From the sequence record OM386658.1: a stretch of DNA of 64,000 nt; one strand, written 5' to 3'. The notes under the pieces were generated by a model. The model saw only the letters and a list, made by a program, of their open reading frames with translations. It searched no databases and was not told the origin of the DNA. The stretch comes from Escherichia phage vB_EcoM_ESCO32. Below are positions 2,295-48,342 of the stretch, in pieces; the first letter of the stretch is position 1; every line of letters starts with the position of its first letter. The position numbers and the translations under genes were made by a program.

Positions 2295-2441
2295 ATGGAT
2301 GATGTAAGTATTTGTCCTATCTGCGGGGGTACTGGGAATTTTATTGTTAGTATGGAACAATTTATTCCTTGTTGGAATTGTAACGGTTTAGGTTTCGTTC
2401 ATACAGAAGAAAAAGAAGAGGAGGAAGATAGTGGGAGTTGA
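2295..2441 (+). CDS. small Cys-rich (CxxC...CxxC) zinc-ribbon-like protein, 48 aa
   Basis: ORF below track threshold: MDDVSICPICGGTGN...CWNCNG...; starts 3 nt after upstream stop. Confidence 0.4.
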   Translation: MDDVSICPICGGTGNFIVSMEQFIPCWNCNGLGFVHTEEKEEEEDSGS

Positions 2442-19842: not shown

Positions 19843-20016
19843 TCAGATTACAAATTTTTCTTCTTCTGGTTTCTCGTAGTTGGGAGAATAAACGTGGGAT
19901 GGATTAAAACCTTTAAAGCTACCTCGCCCTTTTCGTGGACAATTGAACGTCTTAGCTTGGTGATCACCAAAAGATTTACCACAATGTACACATTTATAAT
20001 TGGTATCTTTGAACAT
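19843..20016 (-). CDS. small Cys-rich zinc-finger-like protein, 57 aa
   Basis: MFKDTNYKCVHCGKSF...FNCPRKG; strong AAGGAG SD; better supported than the overlapping track ORF 19848..20045 in another frame. Confidence 0.45.
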   Translation of the reverse strand: MFKDTNYKCVHCGKSFGDHQAKTFNCPRKGRGSFKGFNPSHVYSPNYEKPEEEKFVI

Positions 20017-27449: not shown

Positions 27450-27617
27450 TTAATTGTGAAAAATGTTATCGATCAGTATGACTAGTAGTACGAGGACAGA
27501 AGGGAGCAGGAATAGAAATCTTAACATTATGTGATGCGTGTGAGAAGCGGCTTTAGCGCCAGCCGCCAATAAGCCTACTAATCCTACAATAAAGAGCAGT
27601 TGTTCAGGGACACCCAT
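27450..27617 (-). CDS. small membrane protein, about 55 aa
   Basis: ORF below threshold; hydrophobic; approx coordinates. Confidence 0.3.
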   Translation of the reverse strand: MGVPEQLLFIVGLVGLLAAGAKAASHTHHIMLRFLFLLPSVLVLLVILIDNIFHN

Positions 27618-34335: not shown

Positions 34336-34344
34336 TACCGTGTA

Positions 34345-34734
34345 TTAATATTCGTTATAATACATCGCTAACTTTTCATCAAAAGCCGATTGACGATCTG
34401 CATACTCCCAAAACATTTCTTGATCCTGTTGTTCGTCATCATCCATCATGTTGAATTGCGCAACCTCCTGGTAAGTGATCGCCATATTATAACGATAGGT
34501 GATCTCTTCTGCGATGTTTTCCGGTAAAGATGATTCTACACTGTCTAACAGCATATTTAACATCATTTCAGCCGCTTTTTCATCATTATCAAAGCAGTAA
34601 GCAGACCATGCCGCATGATGTTTATTTTTCATCTTTGCAATCAAGCCGTTGACTAAAAAAGGCGCTACGTTGTTAACGATACCCTGTAAAGATTGGAATT
34701 TTTCAACGTTAGAAACAGAAACCAGGTTGCGCAT
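34345..34734 (-). CDS. hypothetical acidic protein
   Basis: Track ORF 34345..34770 trimmed to ATG (longer form would run through the hairpin). Confidence 0.5.
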   Translation of the reverse strand: MRNLVSVSNVEKFQSLQGIVNNVAPFLVNGLIAKMKNKHHAAWSAYCFDNDEKAAEMMLNMLLDSVESSLPENIAEEITYRYNMAITYQEVAQFNMMDDDEQQDQEMFWEYADRQSAFDEKLAMYYNEY

Positions 34735-34757
34735 AGTATTTACCTTTTTGATTACCT

Positions 34758-34816
34758 GGCGGGAAACCATTTCCCGCCTACGTGGTAAATAATACCATAT
34801 TGGGGATCGGTGTCAA
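34758..34816 (-). promoter_or_regulatory. PeSL-like cassette
   Basis: TTGACA - 16 nt - TATTAT then GGCGGGAAA-cca-TTTCCCGCC hairpin. Confidence 0.55.
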
Positions 34817-34822
34817 TACTTT

Positions 34823-35209
34823 TTATTCAATATAAATCAAATTATCTTCACCAATGTAAGCATGCACCGATGGCATTAATTTAGCTGCATTTGTTAGGCG
34901 GTTGGCGGTGTTAGTAGTGTATATTTCAGGGCGATCCCAAAAGCCTACGCCGTGACCGTTACGGGTGAAATGTAAGTCATTCCCGATCTGGTTTGCTGTT
35001 GCGCCGTCGCTCATTGCCTCAGAGATAGCAGCATCATTGGCATCACAATAAGCCGCTACGTCATGAATGATCCGCTGATGGGCTTGATCTGAAAAATCAT
35101 AATCGTCTAAGTTATCAATAAAATAGCCTTCATGATCCCTGGCGGATTCAGCAAAAATAAAGGCTTCTTTATAACCGTTGATGATTTCAATAATGATTTC
35201 AGTTTTCAT
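34823..35209 (-). CDS. hypothetical protein
   Basis: Track ORF. Confidence 0.55.
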   Translation of the reverse strand: MKTEIIIEIINGYKEAFIFAESARDHEGYFIDNLDDYDFSDQAHQRIIHDVAAYCDANDAAISEAMSDGATANQIGNDLHFTRNGHGVGFWDRPEIYTTNTANRLTNAAKLMPSVHAYIGEDNLIYIE

Positions 35210-35421
35210 GCTGTACGCTCGACAATAATAATGGTTTGCGGTATCTCGTTTTCTACTACTAACAAGGCTTTTTTCTGTGTGATAGATATTTTAACACGTT
35301 GTAAAGTAGCGGTAAAATCTTTCATTTCATTATGCGCGGATTTAGTGCAATGCCATATTTCAGGTTTACCAATTTGCAAGCCGCGTAAAAATTCTGTTTT
35401 ACCTGTCTTATTCGTGATCAT
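35206..35421 (-). CDS. hypothetical protein
   Basis: Track ORF 35206..35439 trimmed to ATG after AAGGTG. Confidence 0.5.
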   Translation of the reverse strand: MITNKTGKTEFLRGLQIGKPEIWHCTKSAHNEMKDFTATLQRVKISITQKKALLVVENEIPQTIIIVERTA

Positions 35422-35431
35422 TTGATTCACC

Positions 35432-35536
35432 TTATCCAATACCGTGGGAAGATAGGATCATGTTAGCCATAGTTGCAACCAATCCAACCGATAACACCAG
35501 GCCAACTACTACAACCGTGAAAATTTTCTCTAACAT
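35432..35536 (-). CDS. small hydrophobic peptide, 34 aa
   Basis: MLEKIFTVVVVGLVLSVGLVATMANMILSSHGIG; GAGGGTAG SD; sits behind a PeSL-like cassette. Confidence 0.35.
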   Translation of the reverse strand: MLEKIFTVVVVGLVLSVGLVATMANMILSSHGIG

Positions 35537-35554
35537 GATTCTACCCTCATTAAT

Positions 35555-35616
35555 GGGCGTTGCCTTATTGCCCCGCCCTATGTCGTACACTTTACCAGAT
35601 AACTGAATATTGTCAA
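35555..35616 (-). promoter_or_regulatory. PeSL-like cassette (variant hairpin)
   Basis: TTGACA - 16 nt - TAAAGT then GGGCG...CGCCC hairpin; approx. Confidence 0.45.
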
Positions 35617-35617
35617 A

Positions 35618-35812
35618 CTATTTTTTACAAGGGATCAGTAAACTTCTTGCTACCGCTTCACGTAAACCTTTACTTTTTATTAAATCTATTGTTGCAGGGT
35701 GGCAAGTAAAAGCCTTTGACCATTTTTGATCACCTGGTTTACGGGCGAAAATGTAAACTTCTCCGTCGATTTCATCCCAACGAGTATTGCTTGTTAGTTT
35801 TTTAAGCGCCAT
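35618..35812 (-). CDS. hypothetical protein
   Basis: Track ORF 35618..35842 trimmed to ATG downstream of hairpin. Confidence 0.5.
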   Translation of the reverse strand: MALKKLTSNTRWDEIDGEVYIFARKPGDQKWSKAFTCHPATIDLIKSKGLREAVARSLLIPCKK

Positions 35813-35835
35813 GCTGATTTCTCTTTTAGTTATGA

Positions 35836-35891
35836 GCGGCACTATTGCCGCCCTACGAAATACATTCTACCCGATTTATAATTGTTGTCAA
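35836..35891 (-). promoter_or_regulatory. PeSL-like cassette
   Basis: TTGACA - 16 nt - TAGAAT then GCGGCA-ctat-TGCCGC hairpin. Confidence 0.5.
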
Positions 35892-35892
35892 A

Positions 35893-36162
35893 CTATTTTT
35901 TCAAGCTCGACCAGTCAAAACACGGGGCGATCTCGTTAAAACTTGTGCCCTGTAAAGCACATAATTTTTTAGCAATAGCCGCCGTGACCTGGCGCTGTAC
36001 GCGCGGATCTGCTACTGATTGGAGAAAGTAGGCGGCTTTATATGTGATCATGCTTTCGCCTGTTTCCTTGTTAACGTGGTGCACGGTTTTAGCCTTATCA
36101 TCTTTTACCAGGGTGTAACCGGATTCGATGGCCTTGATTGCAACGTCCAATGATATTTTCAT
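35893..36162 (-). CDS. hypothetical protein
   Basis: Track ORF. Confidence 0.55.
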   Translation of the reverse strand: MKISLDVAIKAIESGYTLVKDDKAKTVHHVNKETGESMITYKAAYFLQSVADPRVQRQVTAAIAKKLCALQGTSFNEIAPCFDWSSLKK

Positions 36163-36181
36163 GATTTATCTCTTTATTGAT

Positions 36182-36203
36182 GGCGGGGAATACTCCCCCC
36201 GCC
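36182..36203 (-). promoter_or_regulatory. leader stem-loop (PeSL-type hairpin without adjacent -35/-10)
   Basis: GGCGGGGAA-tact-CCCCCCGCC, about 20 nt upstream of gene 35893..36162 start. Confidence 0.4.
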
Positions 36204-36210
36204 TTATTAA

Positions 36211-36381
36211 TTACTCTTCATCGTCGCCGTTGTAGTATTCAATGCCGTTTTCATCGGTTACGGTAATATTAACGCCACCGATAGCAACACGATCACGGGC
36301 AAACGTCATGGCTTCATTTAAATCTTCAGACCAAAAAATATTGTGACCTTTGCGCGATACATAAAACATAGTCGGGATCAT
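36211..36381 (-). CDS. small protein, 56 aa
   Basis: ORF below threshold; AGAAGAGAAAC SD; behind a PeSL-like cassette. Confidence 0.4.
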   Translation of the reverse strand: MIPTMFYVSRKGHNIFWSEDLNEAMTFARDRVAIGGVNITVTDENGIEYYNGDDEE

Positions 36382-36404
36382 GATTTGTTTCTCTTCTGTT
36401 GTGA

Positions 36405-36464
36405 GCGGGAAACCACTTCCCGCCCTATGTGATAAACTTTACTACGTTGTTTTTCTGCTGTCAA
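36405..36464 (-). promoter_or_regulatory. PeSL-like cassette
   Basis: TTGACA - 17 nt - TAAAGT then GCGGGAA-accac-TTCCCGC hairpin. Confidence 0.5.
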
Positions 36465-36465
36465 A

Positions 36466-36750
36466 TTATTTTTTAATGTTTTGCCCTACAAAATTGATCA
36501 CTTCCTTAAGCTGTTTCTCAGTCATGATCGTGCCTGGTAATTCTTCTTTGATTTCTTCCGGTAAATAGATATTACCGCGCCAAGTTAATAAACAACAGTT
36601 TTGATCTTCGCAGATGGAATAAGAGAAGATCCACTCATTATCATTCTCAAGCTCCCAAAAGCACAAAAAATCTTCTTTCCCTAAGTTTTCAACGGTTAAG
36701 CATAATCCGCGACGTGCTGCATAGTTGGAAAGTGCTTTTGTGATCTTCAT
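36466..36750 (-). CDS. hypothetical Cys-rich protein
   Basis: Track ORF. Confidence 0.55.
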   Translation of the reverse strand: MKITKALSNYAARRGLCLTVENLGKEDFLCFWELENDNEWIFSYSICEDQNCCLLTWRGNIYLPEEIKEELPGTIMTEKQLKEVINFVGQNIKK

Positions 36751-36769
36751 AGCTTATCTCTTCTTTTAA

Positions 36770-36832
36770 GGCGGGGAAACCATTTCCCCGCTCTATGAGA
36801 TACAATATACTACCCGTTCGGTGTGCTGTCAA
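36770..36832 (-). promoter_or_regulatory. PeSL-like cassette
   Basis: TTGACA - 17 nt - TATATT then GCGGGGAAA-cca-TTTCCCCGC hairpin. Confidence 0.55.
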
Positions 36833-37156
36833 TCAATAATCTTCAATATTTTCTACATTGACAAAAGCATGTTTATTTTCTAAGTTTTCGCCGTACCATT
36901 GCCCCATGTTGATTTCTGCGGTGCGCAACCAGGACATGCCGCGTTGTATCTTTTTACTTGCAATCTCGATCCGGCTTTTGCATAGTGCTTTCGCTTGCAA
37001 TGTAAAAACACTATTGCCCTGTAATGCTTCCAGGTCATCATGTGCAAGGCGATACTCTTTAAAGCCTGATTCTATCATTTCAATAGCATCAAGTAAACGC
37101 GCGCGATGATAGAAAAAATCAGAGTTATCCAAATAAACACCGATCACAGATTTCAT
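36833..37156 (-). CDS. hypothetical protein
   Basis: Track ORF 36833..37216 trimmed to ATG after AAAAGGG. Confidence 0.5.
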   Translation of the reverse strand: MKSVIGVYLDNSDFFYHRARLLDAIEMIESGFKEYRLAHDDLEALQGNSVFTLQAKALCKSRIEIASKKIQRGMSWLRTAEINMGQWYGENLENKHAFVNVENIEDY

Positions 37157-37256
37157 AATTTTACCCTTTTGTTTGCGGCCTTTGCCGTTTTCAAGATATA
37201 TTTTAAAGCATAACAAAAAATTGTCAAACCTTTAAAGCGTACAACTATAAAACCTA

Positions 37257-37376
37257 TTAAAACACAATATATAACAACATGGCTATAGTAGCAATATAAC
37301 ATAAAACCATGCTTGTTTTCCTTCCTTCCTCATATGCTGGATTTATTACGCTATACTGTACGGGAATAACTTTCAT
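37257..37376 (-). CDS. small protein with hydrophobic C-terminus, 39 aa
   Basis: ORF below threshold; AAGGAAAC SD; approx. Confidence 0.3.
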   Translation of the reverse strand: MKVIPVQYSVINPAYEEGRKTSMVLCYIATIAMLLYIVF

Positions 37377-37385
37377 GTTGTTTCC

Positions 37386-37481
37386 TTAATGTCTTAAAAC
37401 GTGGTTTACAATAGAAACAAGTATACAGAAGAAAAAAGATCCTGACAATAAGATCCCGAAAAATAAATGTAAATAGGGCAT
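37386..37481 (-). CDS. small hydrophobic peptide, 31 aa
   Basis: MPYLHLFFGILLSGSFFFCILVSIVNHVLRH; strong TAAGGAG SD. Confidence 0.35.
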   Translation of the reverse strand: MPYLHLFFGILLSGSFFFCILVSIVNHVLRH

Positions 37482-37485
37482 GGTT

Positions 37486-37788
37486 TTACTCCTTAAAAAA
37501 ATCATTGACAATTAAACTGATAACGCCCAGCACCAGATCACCAGGTAGCGCCGCGCTTTCGTTGTTGCTTATTTGCACTTCCTCACTAGTACCAGCATGA
37601 TAAATCGCATGGTAAGCAATAGTATAATAACCTTTCGTTATTTCTTTAAGATTAATGATTAGCACGTTATTTGTTTCATCTTGAAACAATTTAGCGGTGA
37701 TAGTATTGTTTTCTTTTACACTATCGACTTTTATTGATGGATCAGTTACACCAGAAAAAAGAAAAAACGTTTTAGCTATGCCGTTCAT
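37486..37788 (-). CDS. hypothetical protein
   Basis: Track ORF; AAAGGAG SD. Confidence 0.6.
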   Translation of the reverse strand: MNGIAKTFFLFSGVTDPSIKVDSVKENNTITAKLFQDETNNVLIINLKEITKGYYTIAYHAIYHAGTSEEVQISNNESAALPGDLVLGVISLIVNDFFKE

Positions 37789-37835
37789 GTAGTTCTCCTT
37801 TGTTGTGTGTATCTTATAACGTGCTTTCTATGTTG

Positions 37836-38237
37836 TCAATCTTTTATCTCGGTGCATTTTGCTAGGGTATACGTTGCAAGTGCTGACACTAGTTTTTCAT
37901 TGCTACGATCTGCGGCTGTACTGTGTACTTTTTGAATACTTTTTAGCCACGGCGTAAAGTTTTGAGTAGTAAGCACACTAGTAATAATTTCACATGGCAC
38001 GTTTTCATTTAAACCGTTAGCTATAGATTTATCTATTTTTGCCGTTAGTTGTGTAACAGCACCATAAGCGATCATGTGTGAATCCTCCATGATTTCATCG
38101 GGGATCGCATTATTAATGATCATCACGTTTTCCATTGCATCAACGGCGCTTAATTCTGCTACTGTGGAGGATATTGCCGCGTGAGATGTTCCAACCATGC
38201 CAAAAGAGATTAAACCAGCGATCAATAATTTTTTCAT
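37836..38237 (-). CDS. predicted secreted/periplasmic protein (signal peptide)
   Basis: Track ORF trimmed to MKKLLIAGLISFGMVGTSHA-AISS: n/h/c regions with AxA-type cleavage site. Confidence 0.55.
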   Translation of the reverse strand: MKKLLIAGLISFGMVGTSHAAISSTVAELSAVDAMENVMIINNAIPDEIMEDSHMIAYGAVTQLTAKIDKSIANGLNENVPCEIITSVLTTQNFTPWLKSIQKVHSTAADRSNEKLVSALATYTLAKCTEIKD

Positions 38238-38245
38238 TTCTTGCC

Positions 38246-38428
38246 TCATATATGTTTTATTGAGATTATATTGTCACTATATACAACGTTTTTCAACGTG
38301 TCAATAAAAATCTTATTGCCTTCAATCCCCAGGATCACGCCGCTAGTTATGAAGCCATATTGATCACGGTATCGGGCGCATAACCTTTGCCCCTGGGCTA
38401 GTGCCTTGCTTATTTCTTCTAATCTCAT
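38246..38428 (-). CDS. hypothetical protein
   Basis: Track ORF; AGGAG SD. Confidence 0.55.
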   Translation of the reverse strand: MRLEEISKALAQGQRLCARYRDQYGFITSGVILGIEGNKIFIDTLKNVVYSDNIISIKHI

Positions 38429-38517
38429 TTTAAAGCTCCTGTAAAGCCGTCTAACGTTGATTTATAGGCTTGCCCTGGCGTTACCATTGCCTATGGGTAA
38501 CAAGCCTCTATATAAGC

Positions 38518-38546
38518 TAAAAGGGCGCTTATTGCGCCCTTTTTTG
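38518..38546 (-). terminator. rho-independent terminator
   Basis: GGGCGC-TTATT-GCGCCC hairpin plus T-run. Confidence 0.6.
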
Positions 38547-38684
38547 TTATTCGTTCCAGTATCTTTTTGTGCTGCGATCTCTTTTTGTTTTGTTCCGCTT
38601 ATCGCCTTTCTTGGTGATCTCTTCGTTCCAATTTTTACGCGCCTTGCTGCGGTTGAATTTTTCGATCTGCTGTGATGCGTTCAT
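38547..38684 (-). CDS. small basic protein, 45 aa
   Basis: ORF below threshold; AGAGGAAAAAAC SD and own terminator. Confidence 0.4.
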   Translation of the reverse strand: MNASQQIEKFNRSKARKNWNEEITKKGDKRNKTKRDRSTKRYWNE

Positions 38685-38699
38685 GTTTTTTCCTCTTAA

Positions 38700-39059
38700 T
38701 TACGCCACGTTATGCTGTTTTGCCAGGATTACGATCATGCTTGCAATATATAACCAATAATTTTCCCGCTCACGGGTAACGGTTGTTTCTTTGCTTGTTT
38801 CTTTTATGTACTTCCATTCAATTAACAAGTGATCGATCTCGTTATAATCAAAAGCAATATTGACTTCTGACGGTAAACCTTGTAACCATGAGGCTATTGC
38901 CTTGATCACGTTATAATTGTAACGTTTTTGATTATCGGGATACCAGTATTCAGAGTTAAAACGGCGCATCAGTTCGGTGATCTTTTCTTTTTCGGTTGTA
39001 GTACCATCAAAAGAAATAGCCGACACAATGTAAGTTTTAATTGCTTTTACTGATTTCAT
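38700..39059 (-). CDS. hypothetical protein
   Basis: Track ORF; behind PeSL-like cassette. Confidence 0.6.
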   Translation of the reverse strand: MKSVKAIKTYIVSAISFDGTTTEKEKITELMRRFNSEYWYPDNQKRYNYNVIKAIASWLQGLPSEVNIAFDYNEIDHLLIEWKYIKETSKETTVTRERENYWLYIASMIVILAKQHNVA

Positions 39060-39079
39060 AATCTTATCTCTTTATTGAT

Positions 39080-39139
39080 GGCGGGAAACCATTTCCCGCC
39101 GTTGTTGTTACTTTACTTATAAATGATGCTACTGTCAAA
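39080..39139 (-). promoter_or_regulatory. PeSL-like cassette
   Basis: TTGACA - 17 nt - TAAAGT then GGCGGGAAA-cca-TTTCCCGCC hairpin then conserved leader ATCAATAAAGAGATAA. Confidence 0.55.
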
Positions 39140-39145
39140 CGGATA

Positions 39146-39316
39146 TTATTTGTTTTTTAACGTTAATGTTCCCAGCTTATCAGCGTGACGCAGACCAGGA
39201 AAGATCCATTTTCCTGATTCATCTTTTACCGGGGCTTTAAGCGTAGCGCCCAGATTGGCGGCATTAACTTTACGTGCAACGTTGCGAGCGGCTTCACGGG
39301 TGGCGAAAGTGATCAT
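39146..39316 (-). CDS. small protein, 56 aa
   Basis: ORF below threshold; AGAGGAAAACACC SD; behind PeSL-like cassette. Confidence 0.4.
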   Translation of the reverse strand: MITFATREAARNVARKVNAANLGATLKAPVKDESGKWIFPGLRHADKLGTLTLKNK

Positions 39317-39340
39317 GGTGTTTTCCTCTTCTCTTTGTTA

Positions 39341-39401
39341 GGCGGTGGGCTATTCCACCGCCTTGATGAATATAGTTTACTTTATTTTGTTAAGATTGCA
39401 A
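39341..39401 (-). promoter_or_regulatory. PeSL-like cassette (variant)
   Basis: TTGCAA - 16 nt - TAAACT then GGCGGTGG-gctatt-CCACCGCC hairpin. Confidence 0.45.
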
Positions 39402-39407
39402 GCGGTT

Positions 39408-39623
39408 TTATGAAATAATTGTCAAAGTAAAATCATAATCTTTTGACAGTTTATATTGTACCTTGTTCCCGTAATAGTCACCTTTACGTAAAGATCCGCG
39501 AATACCTATTACATCCTTTACATCTTTAAGATTTTTCACGCCTGTAATGTCTTTATTGAAATGATCGTGATCAGAAAATAAAACCTGCTTTGCATTTTTT
39601 AACAATGTGCGGATATTAGCCAT
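39408..39623 (-). CDS. hypothetical protein
   Basis: Track ORF. Confidence 0.55.
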   Translation of the reverse strand: MANIRTLLKNAKQVLFSDHDHFNKDITGVKNLKDVKDVIGIRGSLRKGDYYGNKVQYKLSKDYDFTLTIIS

Positions 39624-39645
39624 TTGATAATCTCTCTCACTATGA

Positions 39646-39701
39646 GCGGCACTATTGCCGCCCTATGAATTACATTTTACTAATTTTAGTTATCTTGTCA
39701 A
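39646..39701 (-). promoter_or_regulatory. PeSL-like cassette
   Basis: TTGACA - 16 nt - TAAAAT then GCGGCA-ctat-TGCCGC hairpin. Confidence 0.5.
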
Positions 39702-39709
39702 TATTATTT

Positions 39710-39937
39710 TTAGTTTAATGCATCCAGGCACAACAAGCGATCAACATTTAGATCGGTTAGGCTAATCGTTGGCACCTGGTAGGATTCGATATATTCGACG
39801 CTCGACCACTGACCAAAATTAGCGACCGCCCAGCTATTCAAGGAAGAGTGAAGATCATCCCCTTTCTTCTCTGTGATGACTGCTACTACCTGGGAGCTTC
39901 CAACCGTACCGGATACGCGAACAATAACGATAGCCAT
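39710..39937 (-). CDS. hypothetical protein
   Basis: Track ORF. Confidence 0.55.
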   Translation of the reverse strand: MAIVIVRVSGTVGSSQVVAVITEKKGDDLHSSLNSWAVANFGQWSSVEYIESYQVPTISLTDLNVDRLLCLDALN

Positions 39938-39959
39938 AATTATAACCTTTCTTTGATTT

Positions 39960-40019
39960 GGCGGGAAACCATTTCCCGCCCTATGTGATAAACTATACCA
40001 GAATATAAAACGTTGTCAA
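39960..40019 (-). promoter_or_regulatory. PeSL-like cassette
   Basis: TTGACA - 16 nt - TATAGT then GGCGGGAAA-cca-TTTCCCGCC hairpin. Confidence 0.55.
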
Positions 40020-40028
40020 CTGTTTTTA

Positions 40029-40268
40029 TTACATTCCAACCATAGCGGCACGGATTGCAGTTTTACTATACTTGAATCCGTCCGGTGTTTTATCTTGTCC
40101 AGTTTGCTCCAGGAATAACATCATATCACGCGCGGCATCATTCTTATTTGTATTAGCTGCGATAAATTCACGCGCAAGATTATAAAAACCTTCATCGTTG
40201 TTGATCCAAAGGCTTACATTCCAATGAGTTTTGTTTTTGTGACCGTTGTACATTTTAGATTTAGCCAT
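40029..40268 (-). CDS. hypothetical protein
   Basis: Track ORF 40029..40325 trimmed to ATG downstream of hairpin. Confidence 0.5.
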   Translation of the reverse strand: MAKSKMYNGHKNKTHWNVSLWINNDEGFYNLAREFIAANTNKNDAARDMMLFLEQTGQDKTPDGFKYSKTAIRAAMVGM

Positions 40269-40292
40269 GATGTTAATCTCTTTTTCAGTGAG

Positions 40293-40351
40293 GCGGGAAC
40301 TATTCCCGCTCTCTATGCAAAACATTATACGCCTTTAAACCTAGTTTGCAA
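40293..40351 (-). promoter_or_regulatory. PeSL-like cassette
   Basis: TTGCAA - 16 nt - TATAAT then GCGGGAA-ctat-TCCCGC hairpin. Confidence 0.5.
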
Positions 40352-40370
40352 GTGCTTTTTAAAAATATGC

Positions 40371-40601
40371 TTAGATTGCAATCGCGTCTAGGCTATAATA
40401 ATAATAAGTGCCGTATTGGTGTACTTTATTACCTTTTATTTCAGTGCTGAATGAATCCGAACGATTAGCATATGATGTTAATTTATAATACTTTGCTTTA
40501 CTAATACGTTGCCATACACCGCAGATCCGCTGTAAGTAAGTAGTTTTATTAGTAGTAGTATCTTTTACGGTTTTAACTTCGGTCATATACATATTAGCCA
40601 T
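40371..40601 (-). CDS. hypothetical protein
   Basis: Track ORF 40371..40634 trimmed to ATG downstream of hairpin. Confidence 0.5.
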   Translation of the reverse strand: MANMYMTEVKTVKDTTTNKTTYLQRICGVWQRISKAKYYKLTSYANRSDSFSTEIKGNKVHQYGTYYYYSLDAIAI

Positions 40602-40621
40602 TTTATTATACCTAGTTATAG

Positions 40622-40683
40622 GCGGGGGAACCATTCCCCCGTCCTGATATGAAACATTTTACGCTTTTTATTCGTGCTGTCAA
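40622..40683 (-). promoter_or_regulatory. PeSL-like cassette
   Basis: TTGACA - 16 nt - TAAAAT then GCGGGGGAA-cca-TTCCCCCG hairpin. Confidence 0.5.
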
Positions 40684-40689
40684 TGCTTT

Positions 40690-41055
40690 TTATAAATCTT
40701 TTTTACGTTTAACATCGCTTGCATGACTGTATACAGCGATCCCATTGTCACGGCAAAAACGGGAAAGGTAAGCATAATTTGAAAAGTCTTTGCCTTCCAG
40801 GTTGATGACCTTGCTAAACTCTTCCAGGGCAACGGTATCAAAATGATCCCCGTAACCATAGTGAAACGGAACGTTAACGACTTCAATCAGTTTACCGCCG
40901 ATCTCAACGTCAACCATCAAAGAGAAATAAGTATTACCATAAGACTTTTGAAACCAGCGACGGGCGCTAATATGTACCGCTTCAATGCTGGATAGTTCAA
41001 TTTTAGCAGTGTTAGCCAGGGTAGCATAAGCAGAAACATTGATATTTTTAGCCAT
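40690..41055 (-). CDS. hypothetical protein
   Basis: Track ORF. Confidence 0.55.
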   Translation of the reverse strand: MAKNINVSAYATLANTAKIELSSIEAVHISARRWFQKSYGNTYFSLMVDVEIGGKLIEVVNVPFHYGYGDHFDTVALEEFSKVINLEGKDFSNYAYLSRFCRDNGIAVYSHASDVKRKKDL

Positions 41056-41150
41056 AGTCTTTAATCTCTTTTGATTAGTTAGGAGTATTCCCGATAAAAG
41101 TTATTATGCTTGTACTATCGTTCGTTGTCAATAGCACAAGACTAAAACTT

Positions 41151-41330
41151 TTAACGATAATCATCATATGCTTTATTGACCTGGCGAATATAGCATTCAA
41201 AAGCTAGATCAATAGATTTATATTCACGGATATAATTACCATAGGAAACCACATACATTTCTATAGCTTCCTCATATGCCAGGAGGATAGAATCTAAACC
41301 TACGATCTCAGTCTTCGCAATAATAGCCAT
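41151..41330 (-). CDS. hypothetical protein, 59 aa
   Basis: ORF just below track threshold; TAAGGAATAAAAGC SD; own TTGACA-16-TATAAT promoter. Confidence 0.45.
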   Translation of the reverse strand: MAIIAKTEIVGLDSILLAYEEAIEMYVVSYGNYIREYKSIDLAFECYIRQVNKAYDDYR

Positions 41331-41389
41331 GCTTTTATTCCTTAGTAATGTTTCAATCTATATAAGCATTATAGCTTACTGATTTTAGG

Positions 41390-41472
41390 TGTCAACTGAT
41401 TTTTTATTTCACCTTTGAGAAGTTGCCCCGCTCTATGTGGTACATATTACGGGGCTTGTTTGCATATGTCAA
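41390..41472 (-). promoter_or_regulatory. tandem sigma70-like promoters with variant leader hairpin
   Basis: Two TTGACA boxes about 77 nt apart with TATAAT / TAATAT -10 elements and GCCCCG...CGGGGC hairpin between them; approx. Confidence 0.4.
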
Positions 41473-41475
41473 CCC

Positions 41476-42030
41476 TTACACAATGCAATTTTCATAATTT
41501 TTTAAGGCTTGTATTTTTTCCTCTTCTGTCGGCGTGTATGGCTGGATCTCTTCCTCTTCCATGTTAGGCATGATTTCTTCCTCTTCCTCCTGGTCGTCCT
41601 GGTCTTCCTCTTGCGCTATGGTAACAAGTTTATTGATCTTCTCCTGGGCTTTAATCAATTTTGCATCTAGCACCATTTTAGCGGTGTTGTATACAGTCCA
41701 TGCCATGCGCTTTTCTTCGTATGCCTTATCTAGTGCGGCTAATTTAGCGGGATACTCTTCTAACACCTTAAAAGCCGGATCAATGCTATATAAGGGATTA
41801 TTTTTAGCGTCATCGCTTGGATCTGCGGCGCTTGCAATGTCAGCGTTACCGTTTGCCAGCCAACCAGGGCGAACGGATCGCGTCTTTGTGTGACCGTTGC
41901 TCTTTGCCGCTCGATTCCCTATCTGCTCCCCGCTGTACCCTACCATGTGATCGATCATGTCATCTGGTATTATGCGCGGATCATTAGCGTCATGCTTTAC
42001 CCATGACTGGATCACATATTCACGCCCCAT
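41476..42030 (-). CDS. hypothetical protein with acidic coiled-coil C-terminus
   Basis: Track ORF. Confidence 0.6.
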   Translation of the reverse strand: MGREYVIQSWVKHDANDPRIIPDDMIDHMVGYSGEQIGNRAAKSNGHTKTRSVRPGWLANGNADIASAADPSDDAKNNPLYSIDPAFKVLEEYPAKLAALDKAYEEKRMAWTVYNTAKMVLDAKLIKAQEKINKLVTIAQEEDQDDQEEEEEIMPNMEEEEIQPYTPTEEEKIQALKNYENCIV

Positions 42031-42292
42031 GTTCGTTCGCCTCTTCTGTTAGTAGTTTACACACCTTAAACATGCTTGCCGCGTCTTTTGACGGTAGCCA
42101 GCCTATGCGATACACTCCAGGATCTGGATTCGTTATATCCGTTAGTTGGGCATTACGATGATTAAAAATAGTGTAACCGCCGCCAGCACGGGGATAAACA
42201 TTATCTTTAAACCTGATAGCGTATCTCGCCAGGTTGAACGTCGTAGCATGTTCAAAAGCGATCACATTATCAAAAACTTTTAGAAAAAACAA
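42020..42292 (-). CDS. hypothetical protein
   Basis: Track ORF, TTG start 7 nt after GGAGGA. Confidence 0.5.
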   Translation of the reverse strand: MFFLKVFDNVIAFEHATTFNLARYAIRFKDNVYPRAGGGYTIFNHRNAQLTDITNPDPGVYRIGWLPSKDAASMFKVCKLLTEEANEHGA

Positions 42293-42294
42293 GA

Positions 42295-42441
42295 TTATCC
42301 TCCCCAGCGTTTAAAGCCCGTTGCACGGTTATTTTTTAACTCTCGTTTTAGTCTCTTGCAACGGTTTACAAGTGCAAACCGTGCCGGAGTGGTAACAGTA
42401 GCGCCGTTTTTGGTGTGAATACTCATTACATATTGTTTCAT
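42295..42441 (-). CDS. small basic protein, 48 aa
   Basis: ORF below threshold; AGGATAAAA SD; behind PeSL-like cassette. Confidence 0.35.
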   Translation of the reverse strand: MKQYVMSIHTKNGATVTTPARFALVNRCKRLKRELKNNRATGFKRWGG

Positions 42442-42460
42442 AAAGTTTTATCCTATGTAA

Positions 42461-42513
42461 GCGGGAACTATTCCCGCTTTAAGATAGCTTATCAGGTTTT
42501 AGTGCAATGTCAA
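42461..42513 (-). promoter_or_regulatory. PeSL-like cassette
   Basis: TTGACA - 16 nt - TAAGCT then GCGGGAA-ctat-TCCCGC hairpin. Confidence 0.5.
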
Positions 42514-42519
42514 CCGTTT

Positions 42520-42882
42520 TTATTCGTAAATTTTACCGCTTTCCACCCATACCATAACACGGCGCATGTTATCCCATGCATCTTGTCGCAGATTTAAGGC
42601 ATGCAATTCTTCCGTGGTGCTCATACCTGGAACGGGCTTATTATACGTTACAAAGAGATCGCCAGCATATTCATAAGCCAGGGTAAGATCACATTGAATC
42701 ATCTTTTTAATCATAGCATCAAGCATCATATTAGCGGCATGTTGATCACGTTTTAACGGTAATGTCGCGATCTGTGTGCGATAGCTTTCGATCCGTGCAT
42801 CCACTGCATCACGCGAAAGATTTTTCACGTCATCGCGGAAAGATACCAGGTTTAACATGATAGTATTGATTTGCTTGCTCAT
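42520..42882 (-). CDS. hypothetical protein
   Basis: Track ORF. Confidence 0.6.
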   Translation of the reverse strand: MSKQINTIMLNLVSFRDDVKNLSRDAVDARIESYRTQIATLPLKRDQHAANMMLDAMIKKMIQCDLTLAYEYAGDLFVTYNKPVPGMSTTEELHALNLRQDAWDNMRRVMVWVESGKIYE

Positions 42883-42904
42883 TGTGTTACCCTTTCTTTG
42901 ATTT

Positions 42905-42964
42905 GGCGGGAAACCATTTCCCGCCCTATGTGGTATATATTACTAAATTATTTTTCAGTGTCAA
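42905..42964 (-). promoter_or_regulatory. PeSL-like cassette
   Basis: TTGACA - 16 nt - TAATAT then GGCGGGAAA-cca-TTTCCCGCC hairpin. Confidence 0.55.
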
Positions 42965-42967
42965 GCC

Positions 42968-43240
42968 TTAAAGCAAAAATGCTACATCTTGCGCTTTTAG
43001 TGTAGTGTCGATCATTTTCGGGCTTTTATAATCAACAAAGCGCGCGGTTTTTTCAATAGCGAAACCTAAATAATCTTGCTTATTGAAATTACATTCTTTT
43101 TTAAATGTTTCCCGTGCCACGGTGATCGCTGCATCCAGGGATAAACGCCCATCAATATTAATATTAGCGAAAGATCCGCCACCGCGCATAGGTTTACCAG
43201 TGATACCCATTACGATCATTGATGCGCTATATGATGCCAT
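42968..43240 (-). CDS. hypothetical protein
   Basis: Track ORF. Confidence 0.55.
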   Translation of the reverse strand: MASYSASMIVMGITGKPMRGGGSFANINIDGRLSLDAAITVARETFKKECNFNKQDYLGFAIEKTARFVDYKSPKMIDTTLKAQDVAFLL

Positions 43241-43254
43241 GATTATTTCTCTCT

Positions 43255-43310
43255 TCTGTTATGAGCGGCACTATTGCCGCCCTATGTGATACATCTTATC
43301 AGATTAAAAA
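43255..43310 (-). promoter_or_regulatory. PeSL-like cassette
   Basis: TTGATA - 16 nt - TAAGAT then GCGGCA-ctat-TGCCGC hairpin. Confidence 0.5.
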
Positions 43311-43328
43311 ACGTTATCAAGAATATTT

Positions 43329-43424
43329 TTAAAAAATAATAACCGCTACTACAACCCAAAATGGAACGGCGAGAATGATAGCGTTAATCGTTCCAACCGC
43401 CAAGCTGTTTTCTTTCTTGATCAT
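43329..43424 (-). CDS. small hydrophobic peptide, 31 aa
   Basis: MIKKENSLAVGTINAIILAVPFWVVVAVIIF; weak SD; approx. Confidence 0.3.
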   Translation of the reverse strand: MIKKENSLAVGTINAIILAVPFWVVVAVIIF

Positions 43425-43692
43425 CGTTATCAACCTTTTATAAGTAATGTTATTGTGACGGTGGATTGTGGAGATCCTCACCTTTGCCCGTCCTGCATTG
43501 CGCCCTCCTTTTGTTTATTGTCGTTGTGCCTCGCCCCCCTCGACAAGATGAATAATACGCTACCAGGTGAGGAACGTCAACCCCTTTTTTAATCTTTTTT
43601 TCATTTCTTTTTTGCTTGCTATCTATAAAGGAAAGGGGCTATTATCTTTCTACCGCGCCAACCAGGGCGCACATCAAAGAAAGGGCGATACC

Positions 43693-43959
43693 ATGACAAA
43701 TACTACTTTACACCTCATGCACTCATTAGGCTGGCAAGGCGGCACGGTGCACCAGGTAGCAAGCGCAACGGGCTTAAAGGTTGAAACCGTTCTCAACCTG
43801 GGCGATCATAAGGTGGAAGAAATAGATCATTTTGATACGTTCGCAAATGGTTATCTATGGGCTTGCAGTGGCGGCGGGGAAAGCAAGATCCCACCAGGGG
43901 CGCGGGGTGATATGTATTTTTGGTTAGGTGTCCTATCCTGGCAAGAAAACAAAAAATAA
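43693..43959 (+). CDS. hypothetical protein (lone plus-strand gene at edge of minus-strand block)
   Basis: Track ORF 43567..43959 trimmed to ATG 43693; upstream TTGCTA-18-TATTAT and small hairpin. Confidence 0.45.
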   Translation: MTNTTLHLMHSLGWQGGTVHQVASATGLKVETVLNLGDHKVEEIDHFDTFANGYLWACSGGGESKIPPGARGDMYFWLGVLSWQENKK

Positions 43960-43961
43960 TA

Positions 43962-43990
43962 TTGACAAGCCCAGGGATCGGGCTTATACT
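43962..43990 (+). promoter_or_regulatory. near-consensus sigma70 promoter with no ORF downstream
   Basis: TTGACA - 17 nt - TATACT; downstream about 200 nt are GC-rich with inverted repeats and no SD-ATG ORF. Confidence 0.5.
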
Positions 43991-44221
43991 GTCTTACATA
44001 CAGAAGAGGAAGCGCCACCCCCACGGCGTAAAGGCGGGGCTAACATACCAGGGCACTACTGGTTGGAAGGTTGATCGCCGGTAGCTCGTCTAAAATAAAT
44101 TTGTAAAGAAATGTAAAGATAAAAATAATTGCTTGCTTTTGTTGTTGGTTATGCTATTCTTATTGTATGGCGAGGGGACACGGGAGCGCGAGACAAACAC
44201 CGCCCCTGCGCGTTATTCTCT

Positions 44222-44332
44222 AAATGAGAAAATTCTCATTTGCTAATGATTCTCATTCTCTTACTGAGAATGATTATCACTTACATAGTTAAATGATAAT
44301 GATTCTCATTTACAAATGAGAATCATTATCAT
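44222..44332. promoter_or_regulatory. cluster of five Fur-box-like palindromes
   Basis: AAATGAGAAAATTCTCATTT; TAATGATTCTCATT; GAGAATGATTATCACTT; GATAATGATTCTCATTTAC (15 of 19 to Fur consensus); AATGAGAATCATTATCAT. Confidence 0.45.
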
Positions 44333-44354
44333 ACGCACACCTATAAAAACACGA

Positions 44355-48168: not shown

Positions 48169-48342
48169 TTACCTTTTAAGGAAACCAATCATAATGAAGA
48201 ACCACATCCAGGCAGGAGAGATAATAAAGCCAAAGAAACCGCAAATAACCGCTTTCTTAATCTCTTCCAGACAACCCACCAGGAAAAGAACGAGTGAGAC
48301 TACAATCCAAATAGCCATAAATACTGTAACAAAGAAACTCAT
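48169..48342 (-). CDS. small membrane protein, 57 aa
   Basis: ORF below threshold; GGAGAAAGG SD; two hydrophobic segments. Confidence 0.4.
   Translation of the reverse strand: MSFFVTVFMAIWIVVSLVLFLVGCLEEIKKAVICGFFGFIISPAWMWFFIMIGFLKR

What the first reader, a model, noticed from the sequence alone, without database searches (positions are those of the whole stretch)
35432..43424. Unlisted small ORFs (30-59 aa), several hydrophobic or Cys-rich, with good Shine-Dalgarno sites
Gaps in the minus-strand block are filled by short ORFs the track omits, for example hydrophobic peptides at 35432..35536, 37386..37481, 43329..43424, 27450..27617 and 48169..48342, basic peptides at 38547..38684 and 42295..42441, and Cys-pair mini-proteins at 19843..20016 and 2295..2441. 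Many sit directly behind a PeSL-like cassette. Small membrane peptides in phages often act in lysis timing or superinfection exclusion.
Basis: seen in the sequence. Interest (0 to 1): 0.45.

Follow-up and report, generated by a model that had tools for sequence, protein, structure and literature searches.

The report
Small genes of a phi92-like phage
The short reading frames are, with one unresolved exception, genuine small phage genes that a 60-amino-acid length cut-off hid; close relatives already annotate them, so this is ordinary and their functions remain unknown.

Summary
The window comes from an Escherichia phage of the phi92 group (Justusliebigvirus), 98% identical to vB_EcoM_ZYD. All nine short ORFs exist exactly where stated, and their descriptions as hydrophobic, basic or Cys-pair hold.

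Seven are supported as real genes by comparison with relatives. The frames stay open, substitutions concentrate at third codon positions, and pN/pS is 0.00-0.37. An eighth (48169..48342) rests only on a full-length PHROG match and intact, almost invariant copies.

Seven match existing families. 38547..38684 belongs to the T7 gene 1.1 family (Pfam PF08200). phi92 annotates three of them as gp237, gp228 and gp070.

One ORF, 37386..37481, stays unresolved. It occurs only in near-identical genomes and has just 8 variable sites. In the sister genus a promoter/stem-loop cassette occupies its interval.

Only two ORFs sit directly behind a promoter/stem-loop cassette here. Five follow the preceding gene directly.

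No ORF lies next to a recognisable lysis gene. A role in superinfection exclusion is untested. A further unlisted membrane micro-gene lies at 37257..37376.

Verdict: real but ordinary, already known, low interest.

The parts
35432..35536 (-). Micro-gene A, 34 aa, a single-pass hydrophobic peptide (MLEKIFTVVVVGLVLSVGLVATMANMILSSHGIG).
   Evidence: Full-length match to phrog_14631 (34/34, E 5e-21). Intact in 12 relatives of both genera, pN/pS 0.19, and 10 of 16 variable sites at codon position 3 (P=0.016). A 1-nt indel upstream in L009 breaks the GTG extension that some records annotate, so the ATG at 35536 is the start.
35555..35616 (-). Promoter (TTGACA-N16-TAAAGT, 35616->35589) plus GC stem-loop (35578->35555), directly upstream of A.
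37386..37481 (-). ORF B, 31 aa, hydrophobic. Coding status is unresolved.
   Evidence: For coding: AAGGAG lies 7 nt before the ATG and the start is 5 nt after the stop of the gp240 homologue. It is intact in all 17 aligned sequences and is annotated in ZYD, Bas60, Bas62, KMB37 and Antha. Against, or neutral: only 8 variable sites, 4 synonymous and 4 not (P about 0.10). It is confined to 55 records that are 95-99% identical, with no outside homologue. A promoter/stem-loop cassette replaces the interval in Mt1B1_P17, and the interval carries TTGTCA-N17-TATACT. The coding strand is 48% T.
37257..37376 (-). Micro-gene J, 39 aa, with a C-terminal transmembrane segment.
   Evidence: AAGGA SD. Matches phrog_10979 'membrane protein' at 5-39/39. 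A same-length homologue, Mt1B1_P17 gp016, is annotated 'membrane protein'. Intact in all 17 aligned sequences. Codon model P(frame) 0.996.
38547..38684 (-). Micro-gene F, 45 aa, net charge +9, a member of the T7 gene 1.1 family and equivalent to phi92 gp237.
   Evidence: Pfam PF08200 at 42.5 bits against a cut-off of 21, covering 2-40/40. Matches phrog_2490. Shares 14 of 18 residues with T7 gp1.1 over KGxKxNKTKRDRSxKRxW. Phapecoctavirus homologues are 60% identical, pN/pS 0.37, with 31 of 60 variable sites at position 3. Annotated as the phi92 gp237 homologue in PATM.
38519..38545 (-). Palindromic GC hairpin with A/T runs on both sides, immediately after F. Probably a bidirectional terminator.
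   Evidence: Annotated as a terminator in PATM and Schickermooser.
42295..42441 (-). Micro-gene G, 48 aa, net charge +11, equivalent to phi92 gp228.
   Evidence: Of 7 variable sites, 6 are at position 3 and there are no amino-acid changes (pN/pS 0.00, P=0.007). Database homologues of 48-49 aa are 74-79% identical and carry precomputed Pfam PF26851. Matches phrog_8393. ZYD notes Phi_gp228. The AlphaFold model is a beta-hairpin plus a long helix at pLDDT 70.
42461..42513 (-). Promoter (TTGACA-N16-TAAGCT, 42513->42486) plus stem-loop GCGGGAATAGTTCCCGC (42477->42461), directly upstream of G.
43329..43424 (-). Micro-gene C, 31 aa, a C-terminally anchored hydrophobic peptide and the first gene of the minus-strand block.
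   Evidence: Intact in 13 relatives of both genera, pN/pS 0.27, with 16 of 30 variable sites at position 3 (P=0.019). Annotated as Mt1B1_P17 gp031 and Schickermooser gp163. In Phapecoctavirus it lies at a different genome position, behind a canonical cassette with an AAGAGG SD. Homology starts at the ATG and runs through the downstream promoter.
43425..43580 (-). Promoter TTGACG-N17-TATTAT (43580->43552) and a 115-nt leader upstream of C. The leader contains AAGGAGG plus a 6-codon mini-ORF (43498..43478).
   Evidence: The leader shows no fold signal (z=+0.83) and no Rfam match.
27450..27617 (-). Micro-gene D, 55 aa (59 aa if the GTG at 27629 is the start), with two hydrophobic segments.
   Evidence: Across 12 variable sites there is a single amino-acid change, V41I, and no site at codon position 2 (pN/pS 0.03, P=0.008). 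Annotated in phage AV123. An ORF this long appears in 0.1% of gap shuffles.
48169..48342 (-). Micro-gene E, 57 aa, with two hydrophobic segments.
   Evidence: Matches phrog_22950 at 57/57, E 7e-40. Strong GGGAGAAAGG SD. Identical protein in 5 relatives with only 1 variable site, so there is no selection test. Codon model P 0.997. Shuffle probability 0.3%.
19843..20016 (-). Micro-gene H, 57 aa, with C-x2-C-x6-H-x6-C, a putative zinc finger.
   Evidence: Matches phrog_10623 at 56/56. A syntenic Phapecoctavirus homologue is 82% identical while its neighbours are 23% and 51% identical. pN/pS 0.16, with 24 of 37 variable sites at position 3 (P=9e-5). The Cys and His ligands are conserved.
2295..2441 (+). 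Micro-gene I, 48 aa, with two CxxCxGxG motifs and an acidic tail, equivalent to phi92 gp070.
   Evidence: phi92 annotates gp070 as 'putative DnaJ chaperone'. A Phapecoctavirus homologue found in the matching DNA stretch (L022) is 51% identical and keeps both motifs. Matches phrog_8027. Pfam hits to DnaJ_CXXCXGXG, Anti-TRAP and DUF5351 are below threshold. Codon model P 1.000.

Best explanation
The nine ORFs are a mixed set of ordinary small genes in the accessory gene blocks of a phi92-like phage (Justusliebigvirus). The ORF track missed them only because they are shorter than 60 aa.

In the 34-43.6 kb minus-strand block almost every gene has the same layout: a near-consensus sigma-70 promoter, then a GC-rich hairpin a few bases into the transcript, then a Shine-Dalgarno site and an ATG. 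A and G are transcribed from their own cassettes, and C from a promoter with a long leader. B, D, E, F and I are translated from the mRNA of the preceding gene, through their own SD or by coupling at the stop codon.

The products fall into three classes:
- One- or two-pass inner-membrane micro-proteins: A, C, D, E and the additional J at 37257..37376.
- Very basic small proteins: F, a T7 gp1.1-family member, and G, predicted as a beta-hairpin plus a basic helix.
- Small zinc-binding proteins: H, and I with two DnaJ-type CxxCxGxG motifs.

Shown here: the ORFs exist, and seven of them are conserved with signs of purifying selection. E is intact in relatives and matches a PHROG family full-length, but it varies too little for a selection test. 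Seven fall in known families, and the cassette layout is as described. The module made of C plus its downstream promoter sits at different genome positions in the two genera.

Inferred: expression is early and host-polymerase-dependent. These are dispensable accessory proteins that act on host membrane or nucleic-acid targets. For the membrane peptides, superinfection exclusion or host takeover is more likely than lysis control.

B (37386..37481) may be a lineage-specific membrane peptide or merely an open frame in a T-rich promoter spacer. I put that at about even odds.
For: Identity of the phage: 98.3% identity to vB_EcoM_ZYD over 9 kb, with 287 related records. phi92, alia and PATM are classified as Justusliebigvirus.

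Existence and properties of the ORFs.

Family matches:
- PHROG families for A, E, F, G, H, I and J.
- Pfam PF08200 for F, plus direct similarity to T7 gp1.1.

Annotation in relatives:
- ZYD annotates A, B, C and G.
- phi92 gp237, gp228 and gp070 correspond to F, G and I.
- Mt1B1_P17 gp031 and gp016 correspond to C and J.
- AV123 annotates D.

Purifying selection in the claimed frame:
- pN/pS is 0.19 for A, 0.27 for C, 0.03 for D, 0.37 for F, 0.00 for G and 0.16 for H.
- Third-position excess gives P between 9e-5 and 0.019 for A, C, F, G and H. D has no position-2 changes (P=0.008).
- The other two sense frames give pN/pS from 0.45 to 2.6.

Controls: spurious ORFs that overlap real genes acquire stops or frameshifts in the same relatives.

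Synteny: H is 82% identical between genera while its neighbours are 23% and 51% identical. A Phapecoctavirus homologue of I, 51% identical, keeps both zinc motifs.

Cassette layout.

Module movement of C.
Against: - There is no expression data of any kind. No ribosome profiling, proteomic or transcript-mapping data for this phage group turned up in the two literature searches aimed at it.
- E has only one variable site, so it has no selection test.
- B fails to reach significance, has no homologue outside a 95-99% identical clade, and scores poorly in a codon-usage model (P=0.002). That model also fails the well-supported hydrophobic genes C and D.
- Function is unknown for every one of these proteins. 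All matching PHROGs are 'unknown function', except J's, which is labelled 'membrane protein'. The fold search for G gave nothing (best E = 2).
Confidence: 0.85

Rival explanations
1. One reading: the hydrophobic peptides (A, B, C, D, E) control lysis timing as holins or antiholins, or mediate superinfection exclusion at the inner membrane.
For: - They are predicted membrane peptides.
- They lie in blocks with sigma-70-type promoters, which suits an early-acting exclusion function.
- From general knowledge, small early membrane proteins such as T4 Imm and Sp block DNA entry.
Against: - No neighbour of D, E, H, A or B matches a family annotated with a lysis function. All are of unknown function except an ATPase.
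- There is no Pfam, PHROG or NCBIfam match to any holin, antiholin or exclusion family.
- Holins are typically late genes next to an endolysin, and that is not the layout here.
- Nothing tests exclusion either way.
Confidence: 0.2
2. The short ORFs are chance open frames in AT-rich spacers and regulatory regions, not genes. This is applied to the whole set, and separately to B.
For: - Shuffled gaps yield a 31-34 aa ATG ORF 15-39% of the time.
- T-rich DNA automatically reads as a hydrophobic 'peptide', and B is 48% T.
- A promoter/stem-loop cassette of the same length replaces B's interval in Mt1B1_P17, and the interval contains TTGTCA-N17-TATACT.
- B's substitution pattern is not significantly coding-like (P about 0.10).
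- Another annotated ORF in the same gap, K at 37153..37302, is frameshifted in 2 of 17 relatives.
Against: - For A, C, D, F, G, H and I, frame-specific purifying selection and cross-genus homologues rule this out.
- For B, a consensus AAGGAG sits at ideal spacing, the frame is intact in all 17 aligned sequences, and three of its four amino-acid changes are conservative (S/T, I/M, R/K).
Confidence: 0.45
3. G (42295..42441) is the N-terminal remnant of a longer gene split by a frameshift from the 90-aa ORF that starts 2 nt after its stop. The idea arises because G aligns only to positions 2-48 of a 111-position PHROG profile.
For: phrog_8393 has a profile length of 111, and G covers positions 2-48. 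The next ORF (42020..42292) starts with TTG immediately downstream and in a different frame.
Against: - Independent database homologues at 74-79% identity are also 48-49 aa with their own stops.
- G shows zero amino-acid change across 7 variable sites.
- G has its own promoter, stem-loop and SD.
- Phapecoctavirus has the 90-aa protein (85 aa there) with no G-like sequence upstream.
Confidence: 0.03

Closest known systems
Annotated small genes of phage phi92 and relatives (phi92 gp237, gp228, gp070; vB_EcoM_ZYD; BASEL phages Bas60 and Bas62; Mt1B1_P17 gp031 and gp016)
   Same: These are the same genes at 90-100% protein identity and in the same genomic context.
   Different: Annotation is inconsistent between records. 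Some use a GTG-extended start for A. Some call the doubtful ORF K and miss J. ZYD calls an overlapping frame in place of F.
Bacteriophage T7 gene 1.1 protein family (Pfam PF08200, Phage_1_1)
   Same: F scores 42.5 bits against a cut-off of 21 over the whole model. It is the same size, equally basic, and shares KGxKxNKTKRDRSxKRxW with T7 gp1.1.
   Different: F lives in a 146-kb myovirus rather than a T7-like podovirus. It is followed by a terminator rather than by a gene 1.2 homologue. The family has no known function; the T7 record calls gp1.1 'hypothetical protein'.
PeSL cassettes of T4-type phages (Arbiol et al. 2010, PMC2839356; Comeau et al. 2014, PMC4122927)
   Same: Both have repeated near-consensus sigma-70 promoters paired with conserved GC stem-loops, placed between small accessory genes. 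Both coincide with gene replacement and relocation between related genomes, as seen for the C module and the B interval.
   Different: The phage lineage is different (phi92-like, not T4-like). Here the hairpin lies downstream of the -10 element, a few bases into the transcript, and is mostly not followed by a U-run. It looks like a 5' mRNA hairpin rather than the terminator described for PeSLs (PMC4122927).
Early membrane exclusion proteins of T-even phages (T4 Imm, Sp). This comparison is from general knowledge.
   Same: Both are small inner-membrane proteins encoded in early, host-polymerase-transcribed accessory regions.
   Different: There is no sequence similarity. The peptides here are much shorter (31-57 aa), and no functional data exist.
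DnaJ-type zinc-finger / anti-TRAP CxxCxGxG mini-proteins
   Same: I carries two CxxCxGxG motifs that are conserved across genera. phi92 labels the homologue 'putative DnaJ chaperone'.
   Different: All Pfam and NCBIfam scores are below the family thresholds (19.5 against 32.7, and 20.4 against 65). There is no J-domain, so it is not a DnaJ.

Membership tests
Pfam PF08200 Phage_1_1 (T7 gene 1.1), tested for F at 38547..38684 | Score above the curated gathering threshold, over the full model. | tested here: met
   42.5 bits against a cut-off of 21, model positions 2-40 of 40.
Pfam PF08200 Phage_1_1 (T7 gene 1.1), tested for F at 38547..38684 | Direct similarity to the founding member, T7 gp1.1, with matching size and charge. 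| tested here: met
   BLASTP finds 14 of 18 identical residues over KGxKxNKTKRDRSxKRxW, E 4e-7. F is 45 aa against 42 aa for gp1.1, with net charge +9.
PHROG families (A: 14631, E: 22950, F: 2490, G: 8393, H: 10623, I: 8027, J: 10979) | A significant profile match. | tested here: met
   E-values range from 7e-40 to 1e-7. A, E, H and J match full-length. G covers only positions 2-48 of 111, and I covers 2-50 of 153.
PHROG, Pfam or NCBIfam family for B, C and D | Any profile match. | tested here: not met
   No hits. C and D are nevertheless supported by direct comparison with relatives.
PeSL (promoter-early stem-loop) cassette | A near-consensus sigma-70 promoter coupled to a conserved GC stem-loop, repeated between genes. 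| tested here: met
   About 20 promoters on the minus strand match 10-12 of 12 consensus positions, and most are followed by GGCGGGAAATGGTTTCCCGCC-type hairpins.
PeSL (promoter-early stem-loop) cassette | The stem-loop acts as a transcription terminator. | tested here: inconclusive
   Only 3 minus-strand terminator-like sites lie in the block, and none coincides with a cassette hairpin. The cassette hairpins lack a following U-run on the sense strand and lie downstream of the -10 element. Function cannot be tested here.
PeSL (promoter-early stem-loop) cassette | Association with gene insertion, replacement or relocation between related genomes. | tested here: met
   C plus its downstream promoter lies at a different position in Phapecoctavirus, with homology ending at the hairpin. 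A cassette replaces the B interval in Mt1B1_P17.
   True for A and G. C has a 115-nt leader, and H has a stem-loop only. B, D, E, F and I follow a gene directly. The C and F homologues do follow cassettes in Phapecoctavirus.
Holin / antiholin (lysis timing) | At least one transmembrane segment. | tested here: met
   Hydropathy maxima are 2.5-3.0 over 17 residues for A to E.
Holin / antiholin (lysis timing) | Location in a lysis cassette next to an endolysin or spanin, or homology to a holin family. | tested here: not met
   The neighbours scanned are of unknown function or an ATPase. There is no holin-family hit.
Superinfection exclusion membrane proteins | Homology to a known exclusion protein, or demonstrated exclusion. 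| not testable with these tools
   No homology was found. The function needs plating assays.
DnaJ central zinc-finger domain (PF00684), tested for I at 2295..2441 | Two or more CxxCxGxG motifs. | tested here: met
   CPICGGTG and CWNCNGLG, conserved as CPVCGGTG and CLNCHGEG in Phapecoctavirus.
DnaJ central zinc-finger domain (PF00684), tested for I at 2295..2441 | Score above the Pfam gathering threshold. | tested here: not met
   19.5 bits against a cut-off of 32.7.

The most novel reading that the evidence does not exclude
ORF B (37386..37481) could be a very young, lineage-specific membrane micro-gene. On this reading it arose de novo in Justusliebigvirus from the T-rich promoter spacer that still occupies the same interval, between the gp240 and J homologues, in Phapecoctavirus. 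It would have gained a consensus AAGGAG-ATG from the last codons of the upstream gene. More broadly, the promoter/stem-loop cassettes of phi92-like phages could both shuffle and give birth to early membrane micro-proteins, with C plus its downstream promoter as a mobile unit.
Probability: 0.2. Interest if true: 0.45.

Novelty: already known. Interest (0 to 1): 0.15.

Why it matters
This is mainly an annotation point. A 60-aa cut-off hides about ten real genes named in this finding. It also hides roughly twenty further gap ORFs in the window that are preceded by an SD-like motif.

GenBank records for this phage group treat these genes inconsistently. They differ on the start of A, some call the doubtful K instead of the conserved J, and ZYD calls an overlapping frame in place of F.

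The micro-proteins are reasonable candidates for screens of host takeover, toxicity or exclusion in phi92-like phages, some of which are used in therapy collections. Nothing here changes what is known about phage biology.

Tried and rejected
- **tblastn of the hydrophobic peptides against the phage collection.** The low-complexity filter masks them. B scores only 31 bits at 100% identity, and D finds nothing, so I used DNA searches and local tblastn without masking instead.
- **The search for homologous proteins.** It refuses queries under 40 aa, so A, B and C could not be searched there.
- **Exhaustive HMMER search with B.** It returned only a repeat protein and a 33-aa deletion-fusion variant.
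- **Codon-usage frame model trained on 37 long ORFs.** It works for soluble micro-genes but fails the well-supported hydrophobic genes C and D, so I rejected it as a test for B.
- **IMG/VR locus harvest.** It added only two close relatives.
- **G as a split gene.** Rejected.
- **Structure of G.** The model has pLDDT 70 and no fold match (best E = 2). The PDB sequence search found nothing meaningful.
- **PF26851.** It is attached to G homologues in the database, but it is absent from the local Pfam copy, so I could not name it.
- **Rfam and tRNA scans of the block.** Nothing found.
- **Fold of the 115-nt leader upstream of C.** No signal.
- **Literature.** No expression data for this phage group were found.

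Full report
**What the window is**

Region 35000-44000 is 98.3% identical to Escherichia phage vB_EcoM_ZYD. It matches 287 phage records, the best of them phi92-like phages of the genus Justusliebigvirus. The sister genus Phapecoctavirus (phAPEC8, Mt1B1_P17, Schickermooser, ZCKP1) matches in pieces at 85-90% identity.

GC skew and ORF layout show a minus-strand gene block from about 34 to 43.6 kb.

**Checking the observation**

All nine ORFs are present at the stated coordinates with ATG starts. Eight are on the minus strand, and 2295..2441 is on the plus strand.

I label them as follows:

| Label | Coordinates | Strand |
|---|---|---|
| A | 35432..35536 | - |
| B | 37386..37481 | - |
| C | 43329..43424 | - |
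| D | 27450..27617 | - |
| E | 48169..48342 | - |
| F | 38547..38684 | - |
| G | 42295..42441 | - |
| H | 19843..20016 | - |
| I | 2295..2441 | + |

The descriptions are correct:
- A to E have hydropathy maxima of 2.5-3.0.
- F and G have net charges of +9 and +11.
- H has C-x2-C-x6-H-x6-C.
- I has two CxxCxGxG motifs.

Shine-Dalgarno sites are strong for B, E, F, H, I and A, moderate for G and weak for C. D's ATG has none, but GGAG lies 7 nt before an in-frame GTG at 27629.

The ORFs are 'unlisted' simply because the ORF list starts at 60 aa.

In dinucleotide shuffles of each gap, an ORF of 31-34 aa turns up in 15-39% of trials, or 2-7% with an SD-like motif. An ORF of 45-57 aa turns up in 5% or fewer. 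The three shortest ORFs therefore need comparative evidence.

**Comparative evidence**

I fetched 31 related loci from both genera. I located homologues with unmasked tblastn and blastn. I then counted substitutions by codon position and estimated pooled Nei-Gojobori pN/pS in all six frames.

| ORF | pN/pS in claimed frame | Variable sites at codon positions 1/2/3 | Test |
|---|---|---|---|
| A | 0.19 | 4/2/10 | P=0.016 |
| C | 0.27 | 7/7/16 | P=0.019 |
| D | 0.03 | 5/0/7 | no position-2 change, P=0.008 |
| F | 0.37 | 16/13/31 | P=0.003 |
| G | 0.00 | 1/0/6 | P=0.007 |
| H | 0.16 | 8/5/24 | P=9e-5 |

- The other two sense frames give ratios from 0.45 to 2.6.
- The antisense frame that shares third positions mirrors the signal, as expected.
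- Control ORFs that overlap real genes (34053, 40680, 36880) pick up stop codons in the same relatives.
- H is 82% identical between genera, while its flanking genes are 23% and 51% identical.
- I has a Phapecoctavirus homologue, 51% identical, in the matching DNA stretch; it preserves both zinc motifs.
- E is identical at the protein level in five relatives, with one variable site. It has no selection test, but it matches a PHROG family full-length and has a strong SD.

**Family matches and existing annotation**

- PHROG families match A (34/34), E (57/57), F, G, H (56/56) and I.
- F passes the Pfam threshold for Phage_1_1, the T7 gene 1.1 family, at 42.5 bits against 21. It shares 14 of 18 residues with T7 gp1.1 itself.
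- G has database homologues of 48-49 aa at 74-79% identity. They carry precomputed Pfam PF26851, which is not in the local Pfam copy.
- ZYD annotates A, B, C and G. phi92 gp237, gp228 and gp070 are F, G and I. Mt1B1_P17 and Schickermooser annotate C. AV123 annotates D.

These are therefore known hypothetical genes, not new ones.

**The unresolved case, B**

The 661-nt region around B occurs in only 55 records, all 95-99% identical. An exhaustive profile search finds no outside homologue. It finds only a 33-aa variant in which a deletion fuses B's first 21 residues to the C-terminus of the 128-aa protein at 34823..35209.

Across 17 aligned sequences B is always intact. It shows just 8 variable sites, 4 synonymous and 4 not (S13T, I20M, R30K, P2H), giving P of about 0.10.

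In Mt1B1_P17 the same interval, between the gp240 and J homologues, holds a promoter/stem-loop cassette of similar length. The B interval itself contains TTGTCA-N17-TATACT and is 48% T on the coding strand.

In favour of B, a consensus AAGGAG lies 7 nt before the ATG. Several submitters annotate it, including the BASEL phages Bas60 and Bas62.

I leave B at roughly even odds.

Directly downstream of B lies J (37257..37376). It is 39 aa, has an AAGGA SD and a C-terminal transmembrane segment.
- It matches phrog_10979 'membrane protein'.
- It has a same-length homologue annotated 'membrane protein' in Phapecoctavirus.

Several GenBank records instead annotate the overlapping 49-aa ORF K (37153..37302). 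K spans the next promoter, is frameshifted in 2 of 17 relatives and has a GTG start in a third. K is probably a mis-call.

A window-wide scan finds 42 gap ORFs of 25-59 aa, about 20 of them with an SD-like motif.

**Regulatory layout**

The block carries about 20 minus-strand promoters that match 10-12 of 12 sigma-70 consensus positions. Most are followed after about 10 nt by a GC hairpin such as GGCGGGAAATGGTTTCCCGCC, and then by an SD and an ATG.

This resembles the PeSL cassettes of T4-type phages (PMC2839356, PMC4122927). Here, however, the hairpin lies just inside the transcript and lacks a U-run, so it looks more like a 5' mRNA hairpin than a terminator. That is an inference.

Positions of the micro-ORFs relative to cassettes:
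- Only A and G sit directly behind a cassette.
- C follows a promoter and a 115-nt leader.
- H follows a hairpin only.
- B, D, E, F and I follow the preceding gene directly.

In Phapecoctavirus, C and F do sit behind canonical cassettes. There C lies at a different genome position. Homology with the window starts at the ATG and extends through the downstream promoter to the hairpin. That fits cassette-mediated module shuffling.

**Function**

None of the micro-proteins has a known function. Ten neighbouring proteins, including those flanking D, E and H, are of unknown function or an ATPase. There is no match to holin, antiholin or exclusion families.

The early-type promoter layout argues against lysis timing. 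Superinfection exclusion or host takeover remains a reasonable but untested guess for the membrane peptides.

G is predicted as a beta-hairpin plus a long basic helix at pLDDT 70, with no fold match. Nucleic-acid binding by F and G is inferred from charge alone.

**Verdict**

The coding interpretation is supported by comparison for seven of nine ORFs and by family match for E. It is open for B.

The cassette claim is only partly right, and the functional suggestion is unsupported. Everything found is ordinary for a large lytic phage and is already present in public annotation.

Noticed in passing
window 31660-31678, 32543-32561, 44242-44260, 44295-44313, 56372-56390: Fur-box-like palindromes (GATAATGATAATCATTATC, up to 3 mismatches) give 6 matches at 5 sites, against 0.04 expected from shuffles. 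Four of the sites lie near the two ends of the early minus-strand block (31.4-32.6 kb and 44.23-44.34 kb). They could mark iron/Fur-responsive phage promoters or Fur titration sites.
   Followed up: partly
window 44354-44574: Three tandem direct repeats of about 75 nt. They are AT-rich and each contains AAAAACTTTAAATAA. Phage alia annotates repeat_region features in roughly this area. They could be iterons or origin-like elements.
   Followed up: no
The Justusliebigvirus records I inspected do not annotate it.
   Followed up: yes
window 37153-37302 (-): A 49-aa ORF (K) annotated in ZYD, Bas60, Bas62, KMB37 and Antha. It spans the promoter of the next gene, is frameshifted in 2 of 17 relatives and has a GTG start in a third. 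It is probably a mis-annotation.
   Followed up: yes
window 34000-43600 (-), e.g. 39960-40019: In the repeated promoter/stem-loop cassettes the GC hairpin starts about 11 nt after the -10 element and is not followed by a U-run. It would sit at the extreme 5' end of each mRNA as a possible stabiliser, rather than acting as a terminator as described for T4-type PeSLs.
   Followed up: partly
window 43478-43498 (-), within the leader 43425-43551: A consensus AAGGAGG followed by a 6-codon mini-ORF (MQDGQR*) in the 115-nt GC-rich leader upstream of C. It is conserved in the Justusliebigvirus relatives inspected. There is no RNA fold signal and no Rfam match.
   Followed up: partly
window 43240-43424 versus L016 7010-7215: The micro-gene C and the promoter downstream of it form a module that sits at different genome positions in Justusliebigvirus and Phapecoctavirus. 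Homology ends at the cassette hairpin.
   Followed up: partly
L001 3962-4132 (about window 38461-38631, -): ZYD annotates a 56-aa TTG-start ORF that overlaps F in another frame and runs across the terminator hairpin. That frame is not open in the window. It is probably a mis-call that displaces the real T7 gp1.1-family gene.
   Followed up: partly
window 16287-16409 (+), 20068-20172 (-), 23413-23586 (-), 25377-25544 (-), 50338-50484 (+), 51675-51839 (+), 6494-6637 (+): Further gap ORFs under 60 aa that are preceded by an SD-like motif. All except 6494-6637, which lies outside the fetched loci, are intact in the Justusliebigvirus relatives that cover them. 20068-20172 also has a 61%-identical Phapecoctavirus homologue. 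Two of them (16287, 50338) are hydrophobic.
   Followed up: partly
about window 22000 (L005 7524-7634, L006 8079-8189, L007 7379-7489): A paralogue of the CxxCxGxG mini-protein I (ENKTICPYCSGMGWVVADVGQMYECVPCKTTGF). It is also present in Phapecoctavirus.
   Followed up: no
MG065645, MG065689, MG065639, MG065656 (phages collection): Records named 'Campylobacter phage' (marked UNVERIFIED in the two records I opened, A145 and A110a) that are 95% identical to this E. coli phage. The two opened records are classified as Justusliebigvirus. They are probably mislabelled or contaminants.
   Followed up: no
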